Positions 3,130 to 15,863 of a stretch of DNA of 64,000 bases are shown here, piece after piece; the stretch's first letter is position 1, and each line of letters opens with the position of its first letter. The notes beneath the pieces are model-generated. The model was not told the DNA's origin, did no database searches, and saw only the letters and a program-made list of their open reading frames with translations. Made by a program: the position numbers and the translations under genes. The stretch is from the human T2T-CHM13v2.0 reference genome, Homo sapiens: the NCBI RefSeq assembly GCF_009914755.1, contig NC_060925.1. The stretch is one strand, 5' to 3'.

Positions 3130-4846
3130 GATATAGGGATATCACATATCATCAGCCTGTGGAGTACAGAGGTAGTTTACAAAGGATAAACCTTCATTGT
3201 TTGGAAAGGAAAGATCAGAGAGCTCTTTATGAAGTTTAAACAAAATCAGAGAAATAAAGAGATGTGGGAAAGAAAGAAAAAAAAAGAAAGTACATTGAGG
3301 ACAGTCCAATCTAACTGTGAACTCATAAGGGACAGCCAGTAAATTCAAAACAGCCTACTGTTTTTTGATTACTTGTGCTACTCTATTAAAATAGCCACAA
3401 ACACAAAACTAGTCTACCTCTTTCTCTCCCCATTATTGGCCCTAACCCAAAAATAGTGGGAGTAAATGATTTAATAATTTATTTTCATGCTCCATTTTGT
3501 TCTTAAGTTAAAATTACTGTGGTTGGTGCCCCTCCTTTAGCTTCTGCTAAAGACTTTACATAATGAAAGCTCATGAAGTGTCTGGATTACTAACAGTTAC
3601 TTATCCAAAAAGATGAGACATGGTTCATTGATTTGATTCTATTAGTTCTCTCTTGAAGATATTTTTCTCCTCCCTCTGTGAAGAAACATTTCTTTCTGTG
3701 TCATACAAGAGGAGTCATTTTTGTAGTTTTAATTCCCTCTTGAGTCCTACAATAATACTAAAATACTCACAGTGACTACAGTATCCTTTGCAGGGAAAAA
3801 ATTGTAAATTAACCATTTAAATATAGTCACTAAGTTATGTGGCATTCACTGACTCAGAGTTGAAAAAGACTCCAAAATTCTTATCCAGTATTAGAGTATA
3901 CAAGGACAAAAGGAGAGGCCAAACTAAGTCTAGGACGCACAATACAAAGAAGAAAATGAGAAGACCAAAGTTACAGTCTCAATACTATGACATGATACTA
4001 AACCATACAGTCAGTCAGCCAATATATATTTGTGGGCCTAGTATATACTGGGCACTGTTTGTAGGTGTTTGGGTTACATCAGTAAACAAAAACAAAGATA
4101 CTAGTTTTCATTCTGGAGAGGGTAAGAGGCAGTAGAACTTGGAAAAGACAGACAATGAACAATAGACATAATGAAGTAAATTATATAGTATAAATTATAT
4201 AGTAAGAAGATAAGAGTTACAGAAAAAGAAAACAAAAAGTAGACCAGGGTTAGTAATTAAGGGGGTGGGGGACAGTTACAATTTTAAATAGGGTGGTTAG
4301 AGTAACCCTCAATTAGAAGTGCCAAGACGTGAAATGCAGTGGAAGCAACCATTTGAAAGTTGCAGAATACTTTAACAAGCTACTTTGCCTCCTGCTGACT
4401 TTGTTTCCCCATTTTTAGAACTGAAATAATAATTCTCATCAAATAAGGGTGCTATTTACATTGAGATAGTGACTATTACTATAAGTAACATTTTAGTCTC
4501 TTGACAAGCATGGGAAGCAATGGAATGAAGGGCAATGGAAGGAAGGGCACTGCATTATGAAAAGGACTTTTTAAAAGAAAACCATCTCCAGGCACTATTC
4601 CCCTTTGTGGAAATGAAGAGAATATTTTCTGAACTCCACCTGGGACATATGAACAATGAGCATGAAATCTTACAAACTGTATAAATAACATTTATTCACA
4701 GTGTCACTGCATCATCTATTGTTTTGAATTCTCTTTAAATTTCCTTCTATATATTTATCCAAAGCTGAAGTCATCTGGTTTAGATTATGGGACCCTGAAA
4801 AGCAAGAACTAGTCTATGTAACTACTTTTAAACATCTGCACAACGC

Positions 4847-7324: not shown

Positions 7325-7660
7325 CTGGAAGGCAGTTGCACTCAAAAGTGAAGTCACCAGTCTGCCGACAGGTGCCTCCATTGACACAAGGCGAGGGTGC
7401 ACAGGGCACATACAGGCTGTCACAGTACTGGCCTGTGAAGCCCTGAAGGCACTGGCACTGGTAGGAACCAGGCAGGTTGAGGCAGGTGCCACCATGCTGG
7501 CAGTGTCCTGGAATGTCACACTCATTGACATCAGTCTCACACTTCTGCCCTGTGAAGCCTGTGAGGCATTTGCAGGAGAACTGGTTGGCCACAGTGGTAC
7601 AGGTACTTCCATTTGCACAGGGATGAGACAGGCAGGCATCGGTCCATTGGCACTCCTTAC
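7325..7660 (-). CDS. NOTCH2NL: NOTCH2NL exon 4 (336 nt), EGF4-6 with EGF6 incomplete
   Basis: cctttag|GTAAGGAGTGCCAATGG...TGCCTTCCAG|gtaagg; encodes [15 protein letters not shown]...[51 protein letters not shown] (Leu210, 7446-7448) replaces NOTCH2 CPQG. Confidence 0.97.
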
Positions 7661-10850: not shown

Positions 10851-11181
10851 TGATCAGAATCTTGCAGAACACACCAAGAAGAGATCCTTCTTAACAACAA
10901 AGGAAGAAGTTTTAATTTGGGACCATTTCAGAGTGACATTTTAATTATGAAGAAGGCATTACTGTCATTTCCACTAGCCAGAATTAAAATATTTTAAGTG
11001 GGTATATGCCCCCCTACTTTGCCTCCTAATAGCAAAACAACTCAAAACTGACAATCAGGAAGAAATTATTCTTATAACACCAAATATTTTCAGTGACTTA
11101 CATCATCAATACCATCATCATCATGATGGAGATCATGGATCATCCTAACTACCCTCTACCCCACCAACACCTTTTGATGAA

Positions 11182-11531
11182 TGATATGGTTTGGTAGTGT
11201 CCCCACCCAAATCTCAACTTGAATTGTATCTCCCAGAATTCCCATGTGTTGTGGGAGGGACCCAGTGGGGTAACTGTATCATGGGGGCCAGTCTTTCCTG
11301 TGCTATTCTCATGAGAGTGAATAAGTCTCATGAGATCTGATGGGTTTCTCAGGGGTTCTGCTTTTGCTTCTTCCTAATTTTCTCTTGCCACCACCATGAA
11401 AGAAGTGCCTTTTGCCTCCCACCATAATTCTGAGGCCTCCCCAGCCATATGGAACTGTAAGTCCAATTAAACCTCTTTTCTTCCCGGTCTCGGGGATATC
11501 TTTATCAGCAGCGTGAAAATGGACTAATACA
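11182..11531 (+). mobile_element. THE1-family (ERVL-MaLR) LTR, left end of the chimeric provirus
   Basis: TGATATGGTTTGG...CCCACCCAAATCTC...CAGCAGCGTGAAAATGGACTAATACA, 350 bp, TG...CA ends; followed by the THE1 internal start GTAAATTGGTACC...GAGTGGGG (11532-11554). Confidence 0.9.
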
Positions 11532-11558
11532 GTAAATTGGTACCAAGAGTGGGGTTTT

Positions 11559-11798
11559 TGCGAGAGTGCCAGCTATCCCGAGGGAAACTTTGGAGGGAAC
11601 CAGCTACTAGATGGTTCAATTAGTCTTTCGCCCCTACACCCAGGTTGGATGACCGATTTGCACATCAGGACTGCTACGGACCTCCACCAGAGTTTCCTCT
11701 GGCTTTGCCCTGCCCAGGCAGAGTTCACCACCTTTCAGGTCCTAACATTTGTGCTCATGCCCCACCTTCCCAGTGCAGAAAACAAGATGGGCCGGTGG
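11559..11798 (-). pseudogene. Degenerate 28S (LSU) rRNA fragment, ~240 nt
   Basis: Plus strand GCTATCCCGAGGGAAACTTTGGAGGGAACCAGCTACTAGATGGTTCAATTAGTCTTTCGCCCCTA...GGACCTCCACCAGAGTTTCCTCTGGC is the reverse complement of the conserved LSU core (LR5 primer region). Many differences are CpG-type transitions. Confidence 0.93.
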
Positions 11799-13240
11799 AA
11801 AGCTGACCTGGCTACTGCCACCGCAGAGTGCCCAATTTGCCAGCAGCAGAAACCAACACTGCGCCTTTGATATGGCACTATTCCTCAGGGTGATCAGCCA
11901 GCTACTTGGTGGCAGGTTGATTATGTTGGACTTCTTCCATTGTGAAAAGGGCAGATGTTTGTCCTTACTGGAATAAACACTTACTCTGGATATGGGTTTG
12001 CCTATCCTGCATGCAATGGTTCTGCCAAGACTACCATCCGCGGACTCATGGAATGCCTTATCCACTGTCATGGTATTCCACACAGCATTGCCTCTGACCA
12101 AGGCATTCACTTTATGGCTAAAGAAGTGCAGCAGTGGGCTCATGCTCATGGAATTCACTGGTCTTACCATGTTCCCCAACATCCTGAAGCAGAACGGTGG
12201 AATGGCCTTTTGCAGTCACAATTACAATGCCAACTAGGTGAGAATACTTTGCAGGGTTGGGGCAAAGTTCTCAAGAAGGCTGTGTATGCTCTGAATCAGC
12301 GTCCAATATGTGGTACTGTTTCTCCCATAGCCAGGATTCACAGGTCCAGGAATCAAGGGGTGGAAATGGAAGTGGTACCACTCACCATCACCCCTAGTGA
12401 TCCACTAGCAAAATGTTTGCTTCCTGTTCCCGCAACATTAAGTTCTGCTGGCCTAGAGGTCTTAGTTCCAGAGGGAGGAACGCTGCCATCAGAAGACACA
12501 ACAACAATTCCATTAAACTGGTAGTTAAGATTGCCACCAGGACACTTTGGGTTCCTACCTTTAAGTAAACAGGCTAAGAAAGGCGTTACAGTGTTGGCTG
12601 GGACATCAAGGCTATCAAGACCCAGGCTATCAAGATGAAATCAGTCTACTACTCCAGAACGGAGGTAAGAAAGAGTATTCATGGAATACAGGAGATCCAT
12701 TAGGGCGTCTCTTAGTATTACCATGCCCTGTGATTAAGGTCAATGGGCAACTACAACAGCCCAATCCAGGCGGGACTACAAATGGTTTGGGCCTCTCCAT
12801 CAGGAAAAAAAAAAACACAACCTGCTGAGGTGTTTGCTGAAGGCAAAAGGAATACAAAATGGGTAGAAGAAGGTAGTCATCAATACCAGCTACTACCATG
12901 TGACCAGCTGCAGAAATGAGGACTGTAATTGTCCTCAGTATTTCCTCCTTCTTTTATTAAAAACATGTCTGTGCTTGCACACACTTGTACTAAGAAAATA
13001 TCTTCATTTTATTTCCTTTCTCCTTTATCATGTGACATAAGATTTATTGACTTCACATCAGCATTTAAGTATCGTTAACTTTATGTAAGAGTGTTTCAGT
13101 TGGGGACTAGTGTGTTTCCGGATGTATGAAGAATAGTTGTACTACATCAGGTGTAATTATGACCTAATTATTGTCTTTATTTGAAGATTATGTGTGATCT
13201 CAGGAGATGTGTACGGGTTCAAGTTGACAAGGGGTAGATT
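11799..13240 (+). mobile_element. HERV-L internal 3' fragment: defective integrase, dUTPase remnant and PPT
   Basis: Translations KADLATATAECPICQQQKP, WWQVDYVG, YSGYGFAYP, IASDQGIHF, ERWNGLL, then VLVPEGG..IPLNW*LRLPPGHFG. Stops and indels are present; ACAAGGGGTAGATT lies just before the LTR. Confidence 0.9.
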
Positions 13241-13749
13241 TGTGGTGGTTAAAACTGAGTGTGTCAACTTGATTGAATTGAAGGATACAAAATATTGATC
13301 TTGGGTGTGTCTGTGAAGGTGTTGCCAAAGGAGATTAACATTTGAGTCAGTGGGCTGGGGAAGGCAGATCCACCCTTAATCTGGATGGACACCATTTGAT
13401 CATCTGTCAGCAAATATAAAGCAGGCAGAAAAACATGAAAAAGCGAGACTGGCCTAGCCTCCCAGCCTACATCTTTTTCCCGTGCTGGATGTTTCCTGCC
13501 CTCAAATATCGAACCCCAAGTTCTTCGGTTTTGGAACTCAGACTGGCTCTCCTTGCTCCTCAGCCTGCAGACAGCCTATTGTGGGACCTTGTGATCATGT
13601 GAATTAATACTTAACAAACTCTCCTTTATATATATATAAAGATTGCCAATATATATATATTAAGATTGCCACCAAGACACTTTGGGTTGGAATATATATA
13701 CATACATATATATTCCATTAGTTCCATCCCTCTAGAGAACCCTAATACA
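13241..13749 (+). mobile_element. MLT2A-type (HERV-L) LTR, right end of the chimeric provirus
   Basis: TGTGGTGGTTAAAACTGAGTGTGTCAACTTGATTG...GGAGATTAACATTTGAGTCAGTGGGCTGGG...(TA)n...CTCTAGAGAACCCTAATACA. Confidence 0.9.
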
Positions 13750-15026
13750 ATGAAAAATTAATATAACAGTATTCTACACTAACTGATCCAGTATAGTCTT
13801 CTGAGTACATTTTTCACTTTTTTGCTTATTGCATTTATAGAACTCTTGGTTTAGTGCTTAAAGCAGGAGAAAAAATGAAGAATGTTCCTCCTTTTCTCAT
13901 CTAATTTAATAAACACTTTTGAATAAAGCTCAGACCCACCTAGAAAAACCCACAATCTATTCAGGTGAGATATGTGTAAAAAAAATTACAATAAAATGTG
14001 ATACATAAAACTAATAAAACTTAGAGACCATTTGCCTAAAGGAATCATGAAAGGGTCACTGAGACACAGTTTTAAATAACATTGGACAATCACCAGTTGT
14101 AGAAAAGGGCATTCCAGGCAAAAGGGTGTGTAACTGTATGGAAGCAATAATAAGTACAACATTTTCAGGAAATAAGGAGAATTTGGTGTGACTAGGCCTA
14201 GATGCTTGTGGGGAGGCCAGGCTATAAAAAGATGTAAAGTCTAGGCTGTAGAGAGCTATGGAAGTCATGTAAAAGAGTTTGCAGTTTATTCTGCGGATGA
14301 TGAAAAAATATTAGACATTGTAAGCAGGTGAGATTGTTAGAATATTTGCATTTATAATCAAAGATGTAGTAATATCATGGGTGAATGAGATGGGGAGAGA
14401 ATAAAGGCAAGAAAACGTATTCAGAAACTACTTCAGAAGCCCAGGTGAGAGATAACATGGCCTTCAACTACAGGGTAGCAGAGGAAATGGGAGGAATAGA
14501 CAGGTGAAAGGCAACTCAGAGGTTGGCTTGGGTGACTGAGTTGAAATGAGGTCAGAACAAGGGACAGGGAGTTTCTAGCGTGGGTATTTGGGATGTACAT
14601 GGTTGCTACGTATTTCTGTCAACAAGGTGAGCTGAAAGTACCTGTAGAATATCTCCAAGGAGAACATACAAAGGATAACTAGAAACATGAGCCTGAATGT
14701 CAGGGTTGGGTGGAGCTAAGGGAATGATGGTGAGATTCATCAGCAAGCTAATGAAGACAGTGGCAGTGGAGGCGAATACAGACAGTGAAATTCCCTAGGG
14801 AGAGCTGTGATGTGGCTCAAAAGAGGGCGCAAAACAGTGCTCCAGGGAGCACAAACATTTAATGGATAAGAACAAGGTAATGAAGAAGCAAAAGGAACAG
14901 GGTTCAGAAAACCAGAAAAGCCAGTGCCCTGAATGTCTAGGGAGGGAGATTTCTAAAAGCAAATAGTCAATAACATCAGCAACTTTTCCTCTGGTGACAG
15001 TGTACTTATTTCTTTTAGTGAAGTAA

Positions 15027-15603: not shown

Positions 15604-15863
15604 CTGTAAACCCGACTTGACAGGTGCACTCATAGGTATCCCGGCTGAGCATATGGCATGTGCCGCCATTCAGGCAAGGTCGAGACACAAAGCATGGATG
15701 AGATGTCGAGTACTGGCAGTCCTCTCCTGTAAACCCTGAGGCACATCGGCACGTGGCTTTCCCCAGCATGGCCTGGGCCACACAAGTCCCACCATTCTGG
15801 CAGCGGTTCTTCTCACAGGGGTCTCGATGTTGACAATATTCCCCCAAGAAGCCTTCTGGACAT
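15604..15863 (-). CDS. NOTCH2NL: NOTCH2NL exon 3 (260 nt), end of EGF1 plus EGF2-3
   Basis: catacag|ATGTCCAGAAGGC...GGGTTTACAG|gtaact; encodes [27 protein letters not shown]...[10 protein letters not shown](G). The phase fits exons 2 and 4. Confidence 0.97.

What the first reader, a model, noticed from the sequence alone, without database searches (positions are those of the whole stretch)
11177..13754. Single provirus with two different LTR families joined through a 28S rRNA cDNA (THE1 / rRNA / HERV-L chimera)
Seen: ATGAA (11177-11181), a complete THE1 LTR, ~23 nt of THE1 internal/PBS region, ~240 nt antisense 28S rRNA, HERV-L integrase-dUTPase-PPT, a complete MLT2A LTR, then ATGAA again (13750-13754). 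Established: ERVL/MaLR integrate with 5-bp TSDs, normal reverse transcription gives identical LTRs, and MaLRs lack pol and are thought to borrow ERVL enzymes. Inference: the shared TSD means one integration. The left part looks like a THE1 plus-strand strong-stop DNA (LTR+PBS). The rRNA orientation is what results if that DNA was extended on 28S rRNA and then jumped onto a HERV-L minus-strand cDNA. This would be direct fossil evidence that THE1 RNA, HERV-L RNA and host rRNA shared a particle. Standard annotation would split it into four unrelated repeats.
Basis: partly seen in the sequence, partly recalled or inferred. Interest (0 to 1): 0.88.

Follow-up and report, generated by a model that had tools for sequence, protein, structure and literature searches.

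The report
Two-family LTR chimera bridged by rRNA
An ancient retroelement insertion in intron 3 of NOTCH2/NOTCH2NL joins the left end of one family (THE1) to the right end of another (HERV-L) through a backwards piece of 28S rRNA, and looks like a single botched reverse-transcription product that caught helper and passenger elements together.

Summary
ATGAA (11177-11181) precedes a full THE1-type LTR (11182-11531), a 6-nt spacer and an 18-nt tRNA-Leu(UAA) primer-binding site (11538-11555). Then come three Ts, 240 nt of antisense 28S rRNA (11559-11798, 88% to rDNA), the last 1.9 kb of HERV-L (from mid-integrase), an MLT2A-type LTR (13241-13749) and ATGAA again. Both LTR ends are exact. A 5/5 flank match has a chance of about 0.0015. 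THE1 homology stops at the last PBS base, which is where plus-strand strong-stop DNA ends. Of 115 listed genomic sites with this spacer+PBS, only the five NOTCH2-family copies leave THE1 there. Both junctions and both flanks occur only in those five chr1 paralogs. Own-branch divergences of all four parts agree (about 4-6%). Caveats: NOTCH2 itself has ATGAG on the left (4/5), no primate orthologues could be examined, and co-packaging is inferred. This is a natural case of known retroviral "patch" recombination, unusual for its mismatched LTRs. No description was found in print.

The parts
11177..11181 (.). Left copy of the 5-bp target-site duplication, ATGAA. It reads ATGAG in NOTCH2 proper.
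11182..11531 (+). Complete THE1-type LTR, TG...CA, 350 nt.
   Evidence: full-length alignments to other copies at 89-91%; the start TGATATGG and the end CTAATACA match other copies.
11532..11537 (+). THE1 spacer GTAAAT between the LTR and the PBS.
11538..11555 (+). 18-nt primer-binding site. It is 17/18 complementary to the 3' 18 nt (with CCA) of tRNA-Leu(UAA). THE1 homology ends at its last base.
11556..11558 (+). TTT of uncertain template at the first junction. Candidates are non-templated bases, read-through of tRNA A58, a short A-tail on the rRNA fragment, or slippage.
   Evidence: The origin is inference only.
11559..11798 (-). 240-nt fragment of 28S rRNA, sense on the minus strand and so antisense to both LTRs.
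   Evidence: Rfam 160 bits; 212/240 to rDNA, ungapped; 8/194 non-CpG changes.
11799..13240 (+). 3' part of the HERV-L interior. It begins in the second half of the integrase zinc-finger region. It holds the rve core (about 11952-12185), a frameshifted dUTPase region (about 12420-12750 by homology) and a purine-rich tract just before the LTR (about 13229-13238).
   Evidence: It equals positions 4609 onward of a 6546-nt provirus (L056).
13241..13749 (+). MLT2A-type 3' LTR, TG...CA.
   Evidence: boundaries set by 5'/3' LTR comparison in provirus L056.
13639..13691 (+). Insertion inside the LTR's TA repeat that other copies lack. It has a 10-nt and a roughly 30-nt copy starting at the same point of the element's own dUTPase region; 13660-13688 equals 12525-12553 at 28/29.
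   Evidence: D1, D2; other LTRs skip query 448-500; found only in the 5 paralogs.
13750..13754 (.). Right copy of the 5-bp target-site duplication, ATGAA, in all five paralogs.

Best explanation
This is one integrase-mediated insertion of a chimeric reverse-transcription product, made roughly 40 million or more years ago in a simian ancestor. It is now a dead passenger in intron 3 of NOTCH2 and was copied into the NOTCH2NL genes by segmental duplication.

Shown: the outer ends are exact THE1 and MLT2A LTR termini with a shared 5-bp flank. The THE1 part is LTR + spacer + an 18-nt tRNA-Leu PBS and nothing more. The 28S piece is antisense. The HERV-L part is the 3' 1.9 kb including its LTR.

Inferred mechanism:
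1. A THE1 plus-strand strong-stop DNA (U3-R-U5 plus the 18 nt copied from the tRNA primer) failed to make its normal second jump.
2. Its 3' end was extended on a fragment of 28S rRNA, giving 240 nt of antisense rRNA.
3. At the end of that fragment the growing strand jumped onto a nascent HERV-L minus-strand DNA that had reached the integrase region. It then ran through dUTPase, the polypurine tract and the LTR.
4. The HERV-L minus strand copied back across the rRNA patch and the THE1 LTR.
5. The resulting linear DNA had one THE1 end and one MLT2A end. Both end in ...CTAATACA and were acceptable to the same integrase.

This implies that THE1 and HERV-L nucleic acids and host rRNA were in one reverse-transcription complex.
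For: - Flanks: ATGAA on both sides directly abuts exact LTR termini. Chance is 0.0013-0.0016.
- The 5-bp rule was checked here. A normal HERV-L provirus has CCAGG on both sides. Of 6 THE1 solo LTRs, 3 have perfect 5-bp repeats and 1 has 4/5.
- THE1 homology ends at PBS base 18. Six normal THE1 copies continue into THE1 interior exactly where the window departs.
- Of 122 genomic sites with the exact spacer+PBS pattern, 115 were listed. Only the 5 NOTCH2-family copies are followed by non-THE1 sequence (one apparent outlier proved to be normal THE1).
- The PBS is 17/18 to the complement of tRNA-Leu(UAA) nt 59-76.
- The rRNA is antisense and ungapped.
- There is no other THE1 or HERV-L piece in the 64 kb.
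- Both junction 65-mers occur in 5 of 5 and 5 of 11 scored candidates. The other 6 of the 11 are normal THE1 copies matching only up to the PBS.
- Concordant own-branch divergence: rRNA non-CpG 8/194 = 0.041; THE1 LTR 0.048 (0.039 CpG-masked); HERV-L interior 0.051 (0.041); MLT2A LTR 0.056 (0.059).
- THE1 and MLT2A LTRs share the terminal CTAATACA, and both elements use a tRNA-Leu PBS.
- Host-RNA 'patches' at non-homologous retroviral recombination junctions are described experimentally (PMC4997597, passages read).
Against: - NOTCH2 proper has ATGAG on the left, so the 5/5 match is seen only in the NOTCH2NL lineage and the ancestral base is unknown.
- There is no microhomology at the rRNA/HERV-L junction. 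At the THE1/rRNA junction there are three unexplained Ts. The tempting pairing of the PBS end with rRNA (7 of 9) works only if two Ts are removed.
- The PBS carries an A where most THE1 copies and the tRNA complement have G. It is therefore not a perfect tRNA copy today, though one substitution in about 40 My is expected.
- None of 30 examined HERV-L 5' leaders is preceded by a THE1 LTR (30 loci from 40 scored of 736 candidates). There is therefore no independent second example of THE1/HERV-L mixing.
- The age estimates use copies chosen for similarity to this one, so they are biased low. They cannot separate two events a few million years apart.
- No orthologous primate sequence was available.
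Confidence: 0.68

Rival explanations
1. This is still one integration, but the three pieces were joined as separate DNA fragments by end-joining: a THE1 strong-stop DNA, an rRNA cDNA and a truncated HERV-L cDNA. They were not joined by polymerase template jumps.
For: There is zero microhomology at the rRNA/HERV-L junction and a short filler (TTT) at the other junction. These features are typical of end-joining.
Against: It needs a free double-stranded rRNA cDNA and a double-stranded strong-stop DNA. It also needs re-capture of the ligated product by integrase so that both LTR tips are processed with a 5-bp duplication. The rRNA orientation would be arbitrary, whereas it matches the extension model. 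End-to-end template jumping by reverse transcriptases also needs no homology (established knowledge).
Confidence: 0.12
2. There were two independent insertions, a THE1 element and a HERV-L provirus close together. A later deletion ran from the THE1 PBS to HERV-L integrase and picked up rRNA-derived filler. The ATGAA match is coincidence.
For: THE1 and HERV-L copies are very abundant (6045 and 1733 first-look candidates). NOTCH2 shows only 4/5. The age estimates cannot exclude two events in the same era.
Against: It requires four coincidences together:
- a 5/5 flank match, p about 0.0015;
- a deletion breakpoint within a few bases of the PBS end, roughly 4 in the length of a THE1 element, and seen in 0 of 110 other listed sites;
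- a 240-nt rRNA filler in the predicted orientation;
- complete loss of the inner LTRs with none left in 64 kb.
Confidence: 0.1
3. A pre-existing THE1/HERV-L hybrid later received an L1-mediated rRNA pseudogene insertion at the junction.
For: On the rRNA-sense strand the fragment is followed by a run of five As.
Against: Five As is not a poly(A) tail, and one of them matches rRNA itself. No direct repeat flanks the rRNA piece. The THE1/HERV-L junction would still need the same explanation. The insertion would have had to land exactly at the PBS end.
Confidence: 0.03

Closest known systems
Non-homologous retroviral recombination with tertiary-template 'patch' insertions (MLV and other vector studies reviewed in PMC4997597, passages read)
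   Same: A stretch of host RNA-derived sequence bridges two unrelated retroviral sequences. It arises during reverse transcription of co-packaged RNAs.
   Different: This is a natural germline fossil. The two partners are different families, a non-autonomous MaLR and its presumed helper. The donor end is a strong-stop DNA terminus. The product keeps two different LTRs. The patch is 28S rRNA and lies antisense.
LTR-mediated retroposition (Tan et al. 2016, PMC5131818; abstract and passages read)
   Same: Host RNA replaces part of the interior of an LTR element. The whole is flanked by LTRs and was formed by template switches in a virus-like particle.
   Different: In that work the two flanking LTR pieces are described as belonging to one retrotransposon. 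The host sequences are mRNAs, and most junctions show microsimilarity (25 of 29 in Drosophila). Here the LTRs are from two families, the host RNA is rRNA in antisense, one junction has no microhomology, and the switch starts at the PBS end.
Canonical HERV-L provirus (for example locus L056, 6546 nt)
   Same: The 3' 1.9 kb is the same: integrase core, dUTPase, purine tract and MLT2A-type LTR. The LTR terminus and the 5-bp duplication also match.
   Different: It lacks the 5' MLT2A LTR, the HERV-L PBS and leader, gag, protease, RT and the start of integrase. The left LTR belongs to THE1.
THE1 (MaLR) element
   Same: A full LTR, the spacer and the tRNA-Leu PBS are identical in layout to normal 5' ends.
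   Different: There is no THE1 interior (gag-like ORF) and no 3' THE1 LTR.

Membership tests
Integrase-mediated LTR-element insertion (class III ERV type) | Element ends exactly in TG...CA | tested here: met
   Left TGATATGG..., right ...CTAATACA. These are the same termini as other THE1 and MLT2A copies.
Integrase-mediated LTR-element insertion (class III ERV type) | 5-bp target-site duplication | tested here: met
   ATGAA/ATGAA in four NOTCH2NL copies and ATGAG/ATGAA in NOTCH2. Chance is 0.0013-0.0016. The rule was verified on L056 and on THE1 solo LTRs.
Canonical provirus | Two LTRs of the same sequence family | tested here: not met
   The left LTR matches THE1-type copies only and the right LTR matches MLT2A-type copies only.
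THE1 / MaLR element | THE1 LTR followed by spacer and tRNA-Leu PBS | tested here: met
THE1 / MaLR element | THE1 internal (gag-like) sequence and a 3' THE1 LTR | tested here: not met
   The window departs from THE1 after the PBS. There is no second THE1 LTR in the window.
HERV-L provirus | pol with integrase core followed by dUTPase, and an MLT2A-type 3' LTR | tested here: met
   rve at E 1.3e-11. dUTPase at E 5.6e-14 in the homologous ORF of copy L020, but not detectable in the window's own broken frames. LTR.
HERV-L provirus | 5' LTR, PBS/leader, gag, protease, RT | tested here: not met
   Only positions 4609 onward of a 6546-nt provirus are present.
LTR-mediated retroposition chimera (Tan et al. 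2016) | Host RNA-derived insert replacing interior sequence, flanked by LTRs | tested here: met
LTR-mediated retroposition chimera (Tan et al. 2016) | Microsimilarity at switch points | tested here: inconclusive
   None at rRNA/HERV-L. It is possible at PBS/rRNA only after removing two Ts.
L1-mediated rRNA pseudogene | Poly(A) tail and a 7-20 bp duplication flanking the rRNA piece | tested here: not met
   There is only a 5-A run and no flanking direct repeat.
Eukaryotic LSU rRNA (Rfam RF02543) | Match above gathering score | tested here: met
   160 bits against a 50-bit cut-off. Only about 240 nt align well, at 88% to rDNA, so this is a fragment and not a gene.

The most novel reading that the evidence does not exclude
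The element is a molecular fossil of a single reverse-transcription complex that held THE1 RNA, HERV-L RNA and a 28S rRNA fragment. This would be the first direct sequence evidence that HERV-L machinery processed THE1. It would also show a route of host-RNA capture not described for endogenous retroviruses. A stranded plus-strand strong-stop DNA primes cDNA synthesis on a host RNA, giving an antisense insert, and then end-jumps onto another element's nascent minus strand. The T run at the first junction could be the copy of a short oligo(A) tail on an rRNA decay intermediate. The twin dUTPase-derived insertions in the right LTR could be further jumps of the same erratic plus-strand run.
Probability: 0.5. 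Interest if true: 0.75.

Novelty: new variant of a known kind. Interest (0 to 1): 0.66.

Why it matters
MaLR elements such as THE1 make up about 4% of the human genome. They encode only a gag-like ORF, so they cannot have replicated alone (PMC10735291, introduction read). ERV-L is the assumed helper, but that rests on sequence kinship. A single-integration chimera whose left end is a THE1 replication intermediate and whose right end is HERV-L would be physical evidence that the two were reverse-transcribed and integrated together. It also shows that mismatched-LTR elements sharing one target duplication can exist. Standard repeat annotation would split them into unrelated pieces, which gives a search image for finding more. 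The element has no evident role for NOTCH2NL. It overlaps none of the listed RefSeq functional elements and lies antisense in an intron.

Tried and rejected
- Paralogous empty site: both 200-nt flanks are single-copy apart from the 5 paralogs, so no internal empty-site test is possible.
- Other loci with either junction: none. In one search only 40 of 782 candidates were scored; 5 were full-length matches and 35 were rDNA.
- Simple THE1-LTR/HERV-L-leader hybrids: 0 of 30 loci examined (40 scored of 736 candidates).
- Other PBS-end junctions: a pattern demanding three non-native bases after the PBS gave 1 hit, which is ordinary THE1 with a small insertion. The wider listing gave none beyond this locus (7 of 122 matches were not listed).
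- Pfam on the window's own dUTPase fragments: no hit even at E 10.
- L1-mediated rRNA insertion: rejected, because there is no tail and no flanking repeat.
- Minus-strand template switch onto rRNA: rejected, because it would give sense rRNA.
- Vargiu et al. 2016 'unexplained' MaLR chain rvnr 5922: it clusters with HERVL32/HERVS and no coordinates were seen, so it is probably not this locus.
- Literature searches that found no description of this element or of THE1/HERV-L/rRNA chimeras: (0 papers). One search failed on syntax and was not repeated.
- Subfamily assignment (THE1A-D, MLT2A1/2) was not possible without a repeat library.
Full report
**Anatomy**

Reading the window and comparing each part with other genomic copies gives the following layout on the + strand.

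- 11177-11181: ATGAA.
- 11182-11531: a full THE1-type LTR. It aligns over query 1-350 with other copies at 89-91% (40 scored of 6045 candidates). It starts TGATATGG and ends CTAATACA like them.
- 11532-11537: spacer GTAAAT.
- 11538-11555: an 18-nt primer-binding site.
- 11556-11558: TTT.
- 11559-11798: 240 nt antisense to 28S rRNA. It is 212/240 identical and ungapped against the rDNA arrays. Rfam LSU_rRNA_eukarya scores 160 bits on the minus strand.
- 11799-13240: HERV-L interior.
- 13241-13749: an MLT2A-type LTR.
- 13750-13754: ATGAA.

The HERV-L part corresponds to positions 4609 onward of a 6546-nt natural provirus (L056). It starts in the second half of the integrase zinc-finger region; seven other copies continue upstream with integrase sequence where the window has rRNA. 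It contains a Pfam rve core (E 1.3e-11). Its dUTPase region is broken in the window (no Pfam hit), but Pfam recognises it in the homologous open frame of copy L020 (E 5.6e-14).

I first placed the right LTR start about 50 nt too far left, working from memory. Comparing the two LTRs of provirus L056 fixed it at 13241.

No repeat library was available.

**Is the flank repeat meaningful?**

Both LTR tips are exact, so there is no freedom in where the 5-mers are read. In this window 98 of 61,422 equally spaced 5-mer pairs match 5/5 (0.0016). Random TG-preceding versus CA-following 5-mers match at 0.0013.

The 5-bp rule holds for these families in this genome. Provirus L056 has CCAGG on both sides. 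Among nine THE1 LTR loci, three are 5' LTRs and six look like solo LTRs. Of the six, three have perfect 5-bp repeats, one has 4/5, one has none, and one could not be aligned at its start.

One fact counts against the reading. In NOTCH2 proper the left copy is ATGAG, while the four NOTCH2NL copies have ATGAA. The right copy is ATGAA in all five. With only two lineages and no outgroup, the ancestral base cannot be called.

**The key junction**

Six ordinary THE1 copies share the LTR end, spacer and PBS with the window, and then continue into THE1 interior exactly where the window departs.

A genome-wide pattern search for the spacer+PBS (two positions widened) found 122 sites. Of the 115 listed, 110 continue with recognisable THE1 interior. 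Only the five NOTCH2-family copies continue with the T run and rRNA. A stricter pattern gave one outlier, which proved to be ordinary THE1 with a small insertion.

The human genome holds four tRNA-Leu(UAA) genes with matching 3' ends. The window's PBS is 17/18 complementary to nt 59-76 (with CCA) of two of them. Most listed THE1 copies carry the exact complement of one of them.

Eighteen nucleotides is what reverse transcriptase copies from the tRNA primer before the modified A58 (textbook knowledge). The THE1 part is therefore exactly a plus-strand strong-stop DNA. Extending such a DNA on rRNA must give antisense rRNA on the LTR's sense strand, and that is what is observed. A minus-strand switch onto rRNA would give the opposite orientation.

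**Junction details**

At rRNA/HERV-L there is no shared base between the partners. This fits an end-to-end jump from the 5' end of an rRNA fragment onto the 3' end of a nascent HERV-L minus strand.

At PBS/rRNA, three Ts are unaccounted for. The last 9 nt of the PBS resemble the rRNA antisense sequence just upstream of the match (7 of 9), but only if two Ts are removed. Non-templated addition, read-through of A58, homopolymer slippage, or copying of a short oligo(A) tail on an rRNA decay fragment are all possible. Such tails are reported in human cells (PMC1474067, search listing and abstract start only). None of these can be shown.

**Uniqueness and context**

- A 331-nt probe spanning both junctions matches in full only five places on chr1: NOTCH2 and four NOTCH2NL paralogs. 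The other 35 scored matches are rDNA covering only the rRNA part (40 of 782 candidates scored).
- The two 65-nt junction probes match in full only those five places. All candidates were scored: 11 of 11, of which 6 are normal THE1 matching only up to the PBS, and 5 of 5.
- Both flanks are otherwise single-copy. The genome therefore offers no empty-site paralog.
- The 64-kb window holds no other THE1 or HERV-L piece.
- The element lies antisense in intron 3 of NOTCH2NLA, between the exons at 7325-7660 and 15604-15863 in the hub's table.

**Age**

The rRNA piece has a known source, so its decay can be read directly. It has 28 changes. Twenty fall on the 46 positions that are CpG in rDNA (18 of them C>T or G>A), and 8 fall on the other 194 positions, or 4.1%.

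For the other parts I avoided any consensus. I estimated this copy's own branch from pairwise distances to 7-9 other copies: THE1 LTR 0.048 (0.039 with CpG-like sites masked), HERV-L interior 0.051 (0.041), and MLT2A LTR 0.056 (0.059).

The four values agree, as one event requires. However, the comparison copies were chosen for similarity, so the values are biased low, and the test cannot separate events a few million years apart.

THE1 families are reported to be simian-specific and extinct for more than 40 My (PMC10735291, introduction and passages read). This fits.

**Shared machinery**

THE1 and MLT2A LTRs end in the same CTAATACA and start similarly. Both elements use a tRNA-Leu PBS, though 30 of 30 HERV-L leaders carry a variant that matches the tRNA for only about 15 nt. 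MaLR interiors encode only a gag-like ORF (PMC10735291). These facts fit one integrase acting on both ends, but they do not prove co-packaging.

**Comparison with what is known**

Host-derived patches at non-homologous retroviral recombination junctions, and recombination of co-packaged RNAs, are established experimentally (PMC4997597, passages). LTR-flanked retrocopies formed by template switching are documented in animals, including a few in human and mouse (PMC5131818, abstract and passages).

This element is of that kind, but it differs in four ways: it has LTRs of two families, it starts from a strong-stop terminus, it carries rRNA, and the host insert is antisense.

Five literature searches found no description of it.

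**Verdict**

The decisive cross-species test remains to be done.

Noticed in passing
window 13639-13691 (source 12525-12553): The right LTR's TA repeat holds two inserts copied from the element's own dUTPase region 1.1 kb upstream. One is a 10-nt copy and one a roughly 30-nt copy (28/29 identical), and both start at the same template base. Other MLT2A copies lack them, and they occur only in the five paralogs. The pattern looks like repeated abortive template switching. It could come from the same reverse-transcription run or from a later repair or replication event.
   Followed up: partly
L005/L045 (NOTCH2 proper) versus window 11181 and 11560-11575: NOTCH2 differs from all four NOTCH2NL copies at the last base of the left flank repeat (G versus A). 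It also differs at two bases just inside the rRNA piece. The T run and both junctions are otherwise identical in all five.
   Followed up: partly
loci L061-L090 (HERV-L 5' ends) versus the listings: HERV-L leaders carry a PBS that matches the tRNA-Leu(UAA) 3' end for about 15 nt and then diverges (12 of 30 share the commonest form). Most intact THE1 copies carry the full 18-nt complement. The passenger therefore seems to keep a better primer site than its presumed helper.
   Followed up: no
window 11182-11189 / 11524-11531 and 13241-13248 / 13742-13749: THE1 and MLT2A LTRs share near-identical tips (TGATATGG versus TGTGGTGG at the start, CTAATACA at the end). This is consistent with recognition by one integrase.
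   Followed up: partly
window 11177-13754 versus the hub's repeat mask: According to the hub's table, only 11976-12180 of this 2.6-kb repeat-derived cassette is soft-masked in NCBI's file. Most of the chimera is therefore unmasked sequence.
   Followed up: no
G000 chr9, chr2 and chr14 sites listed (for example L091): A group of THE1 copies shares the same small insertion right after the PBS (eight near-identical sites). They probably spread by segmental duplication and not by retrotransposition.
   Followed up: no
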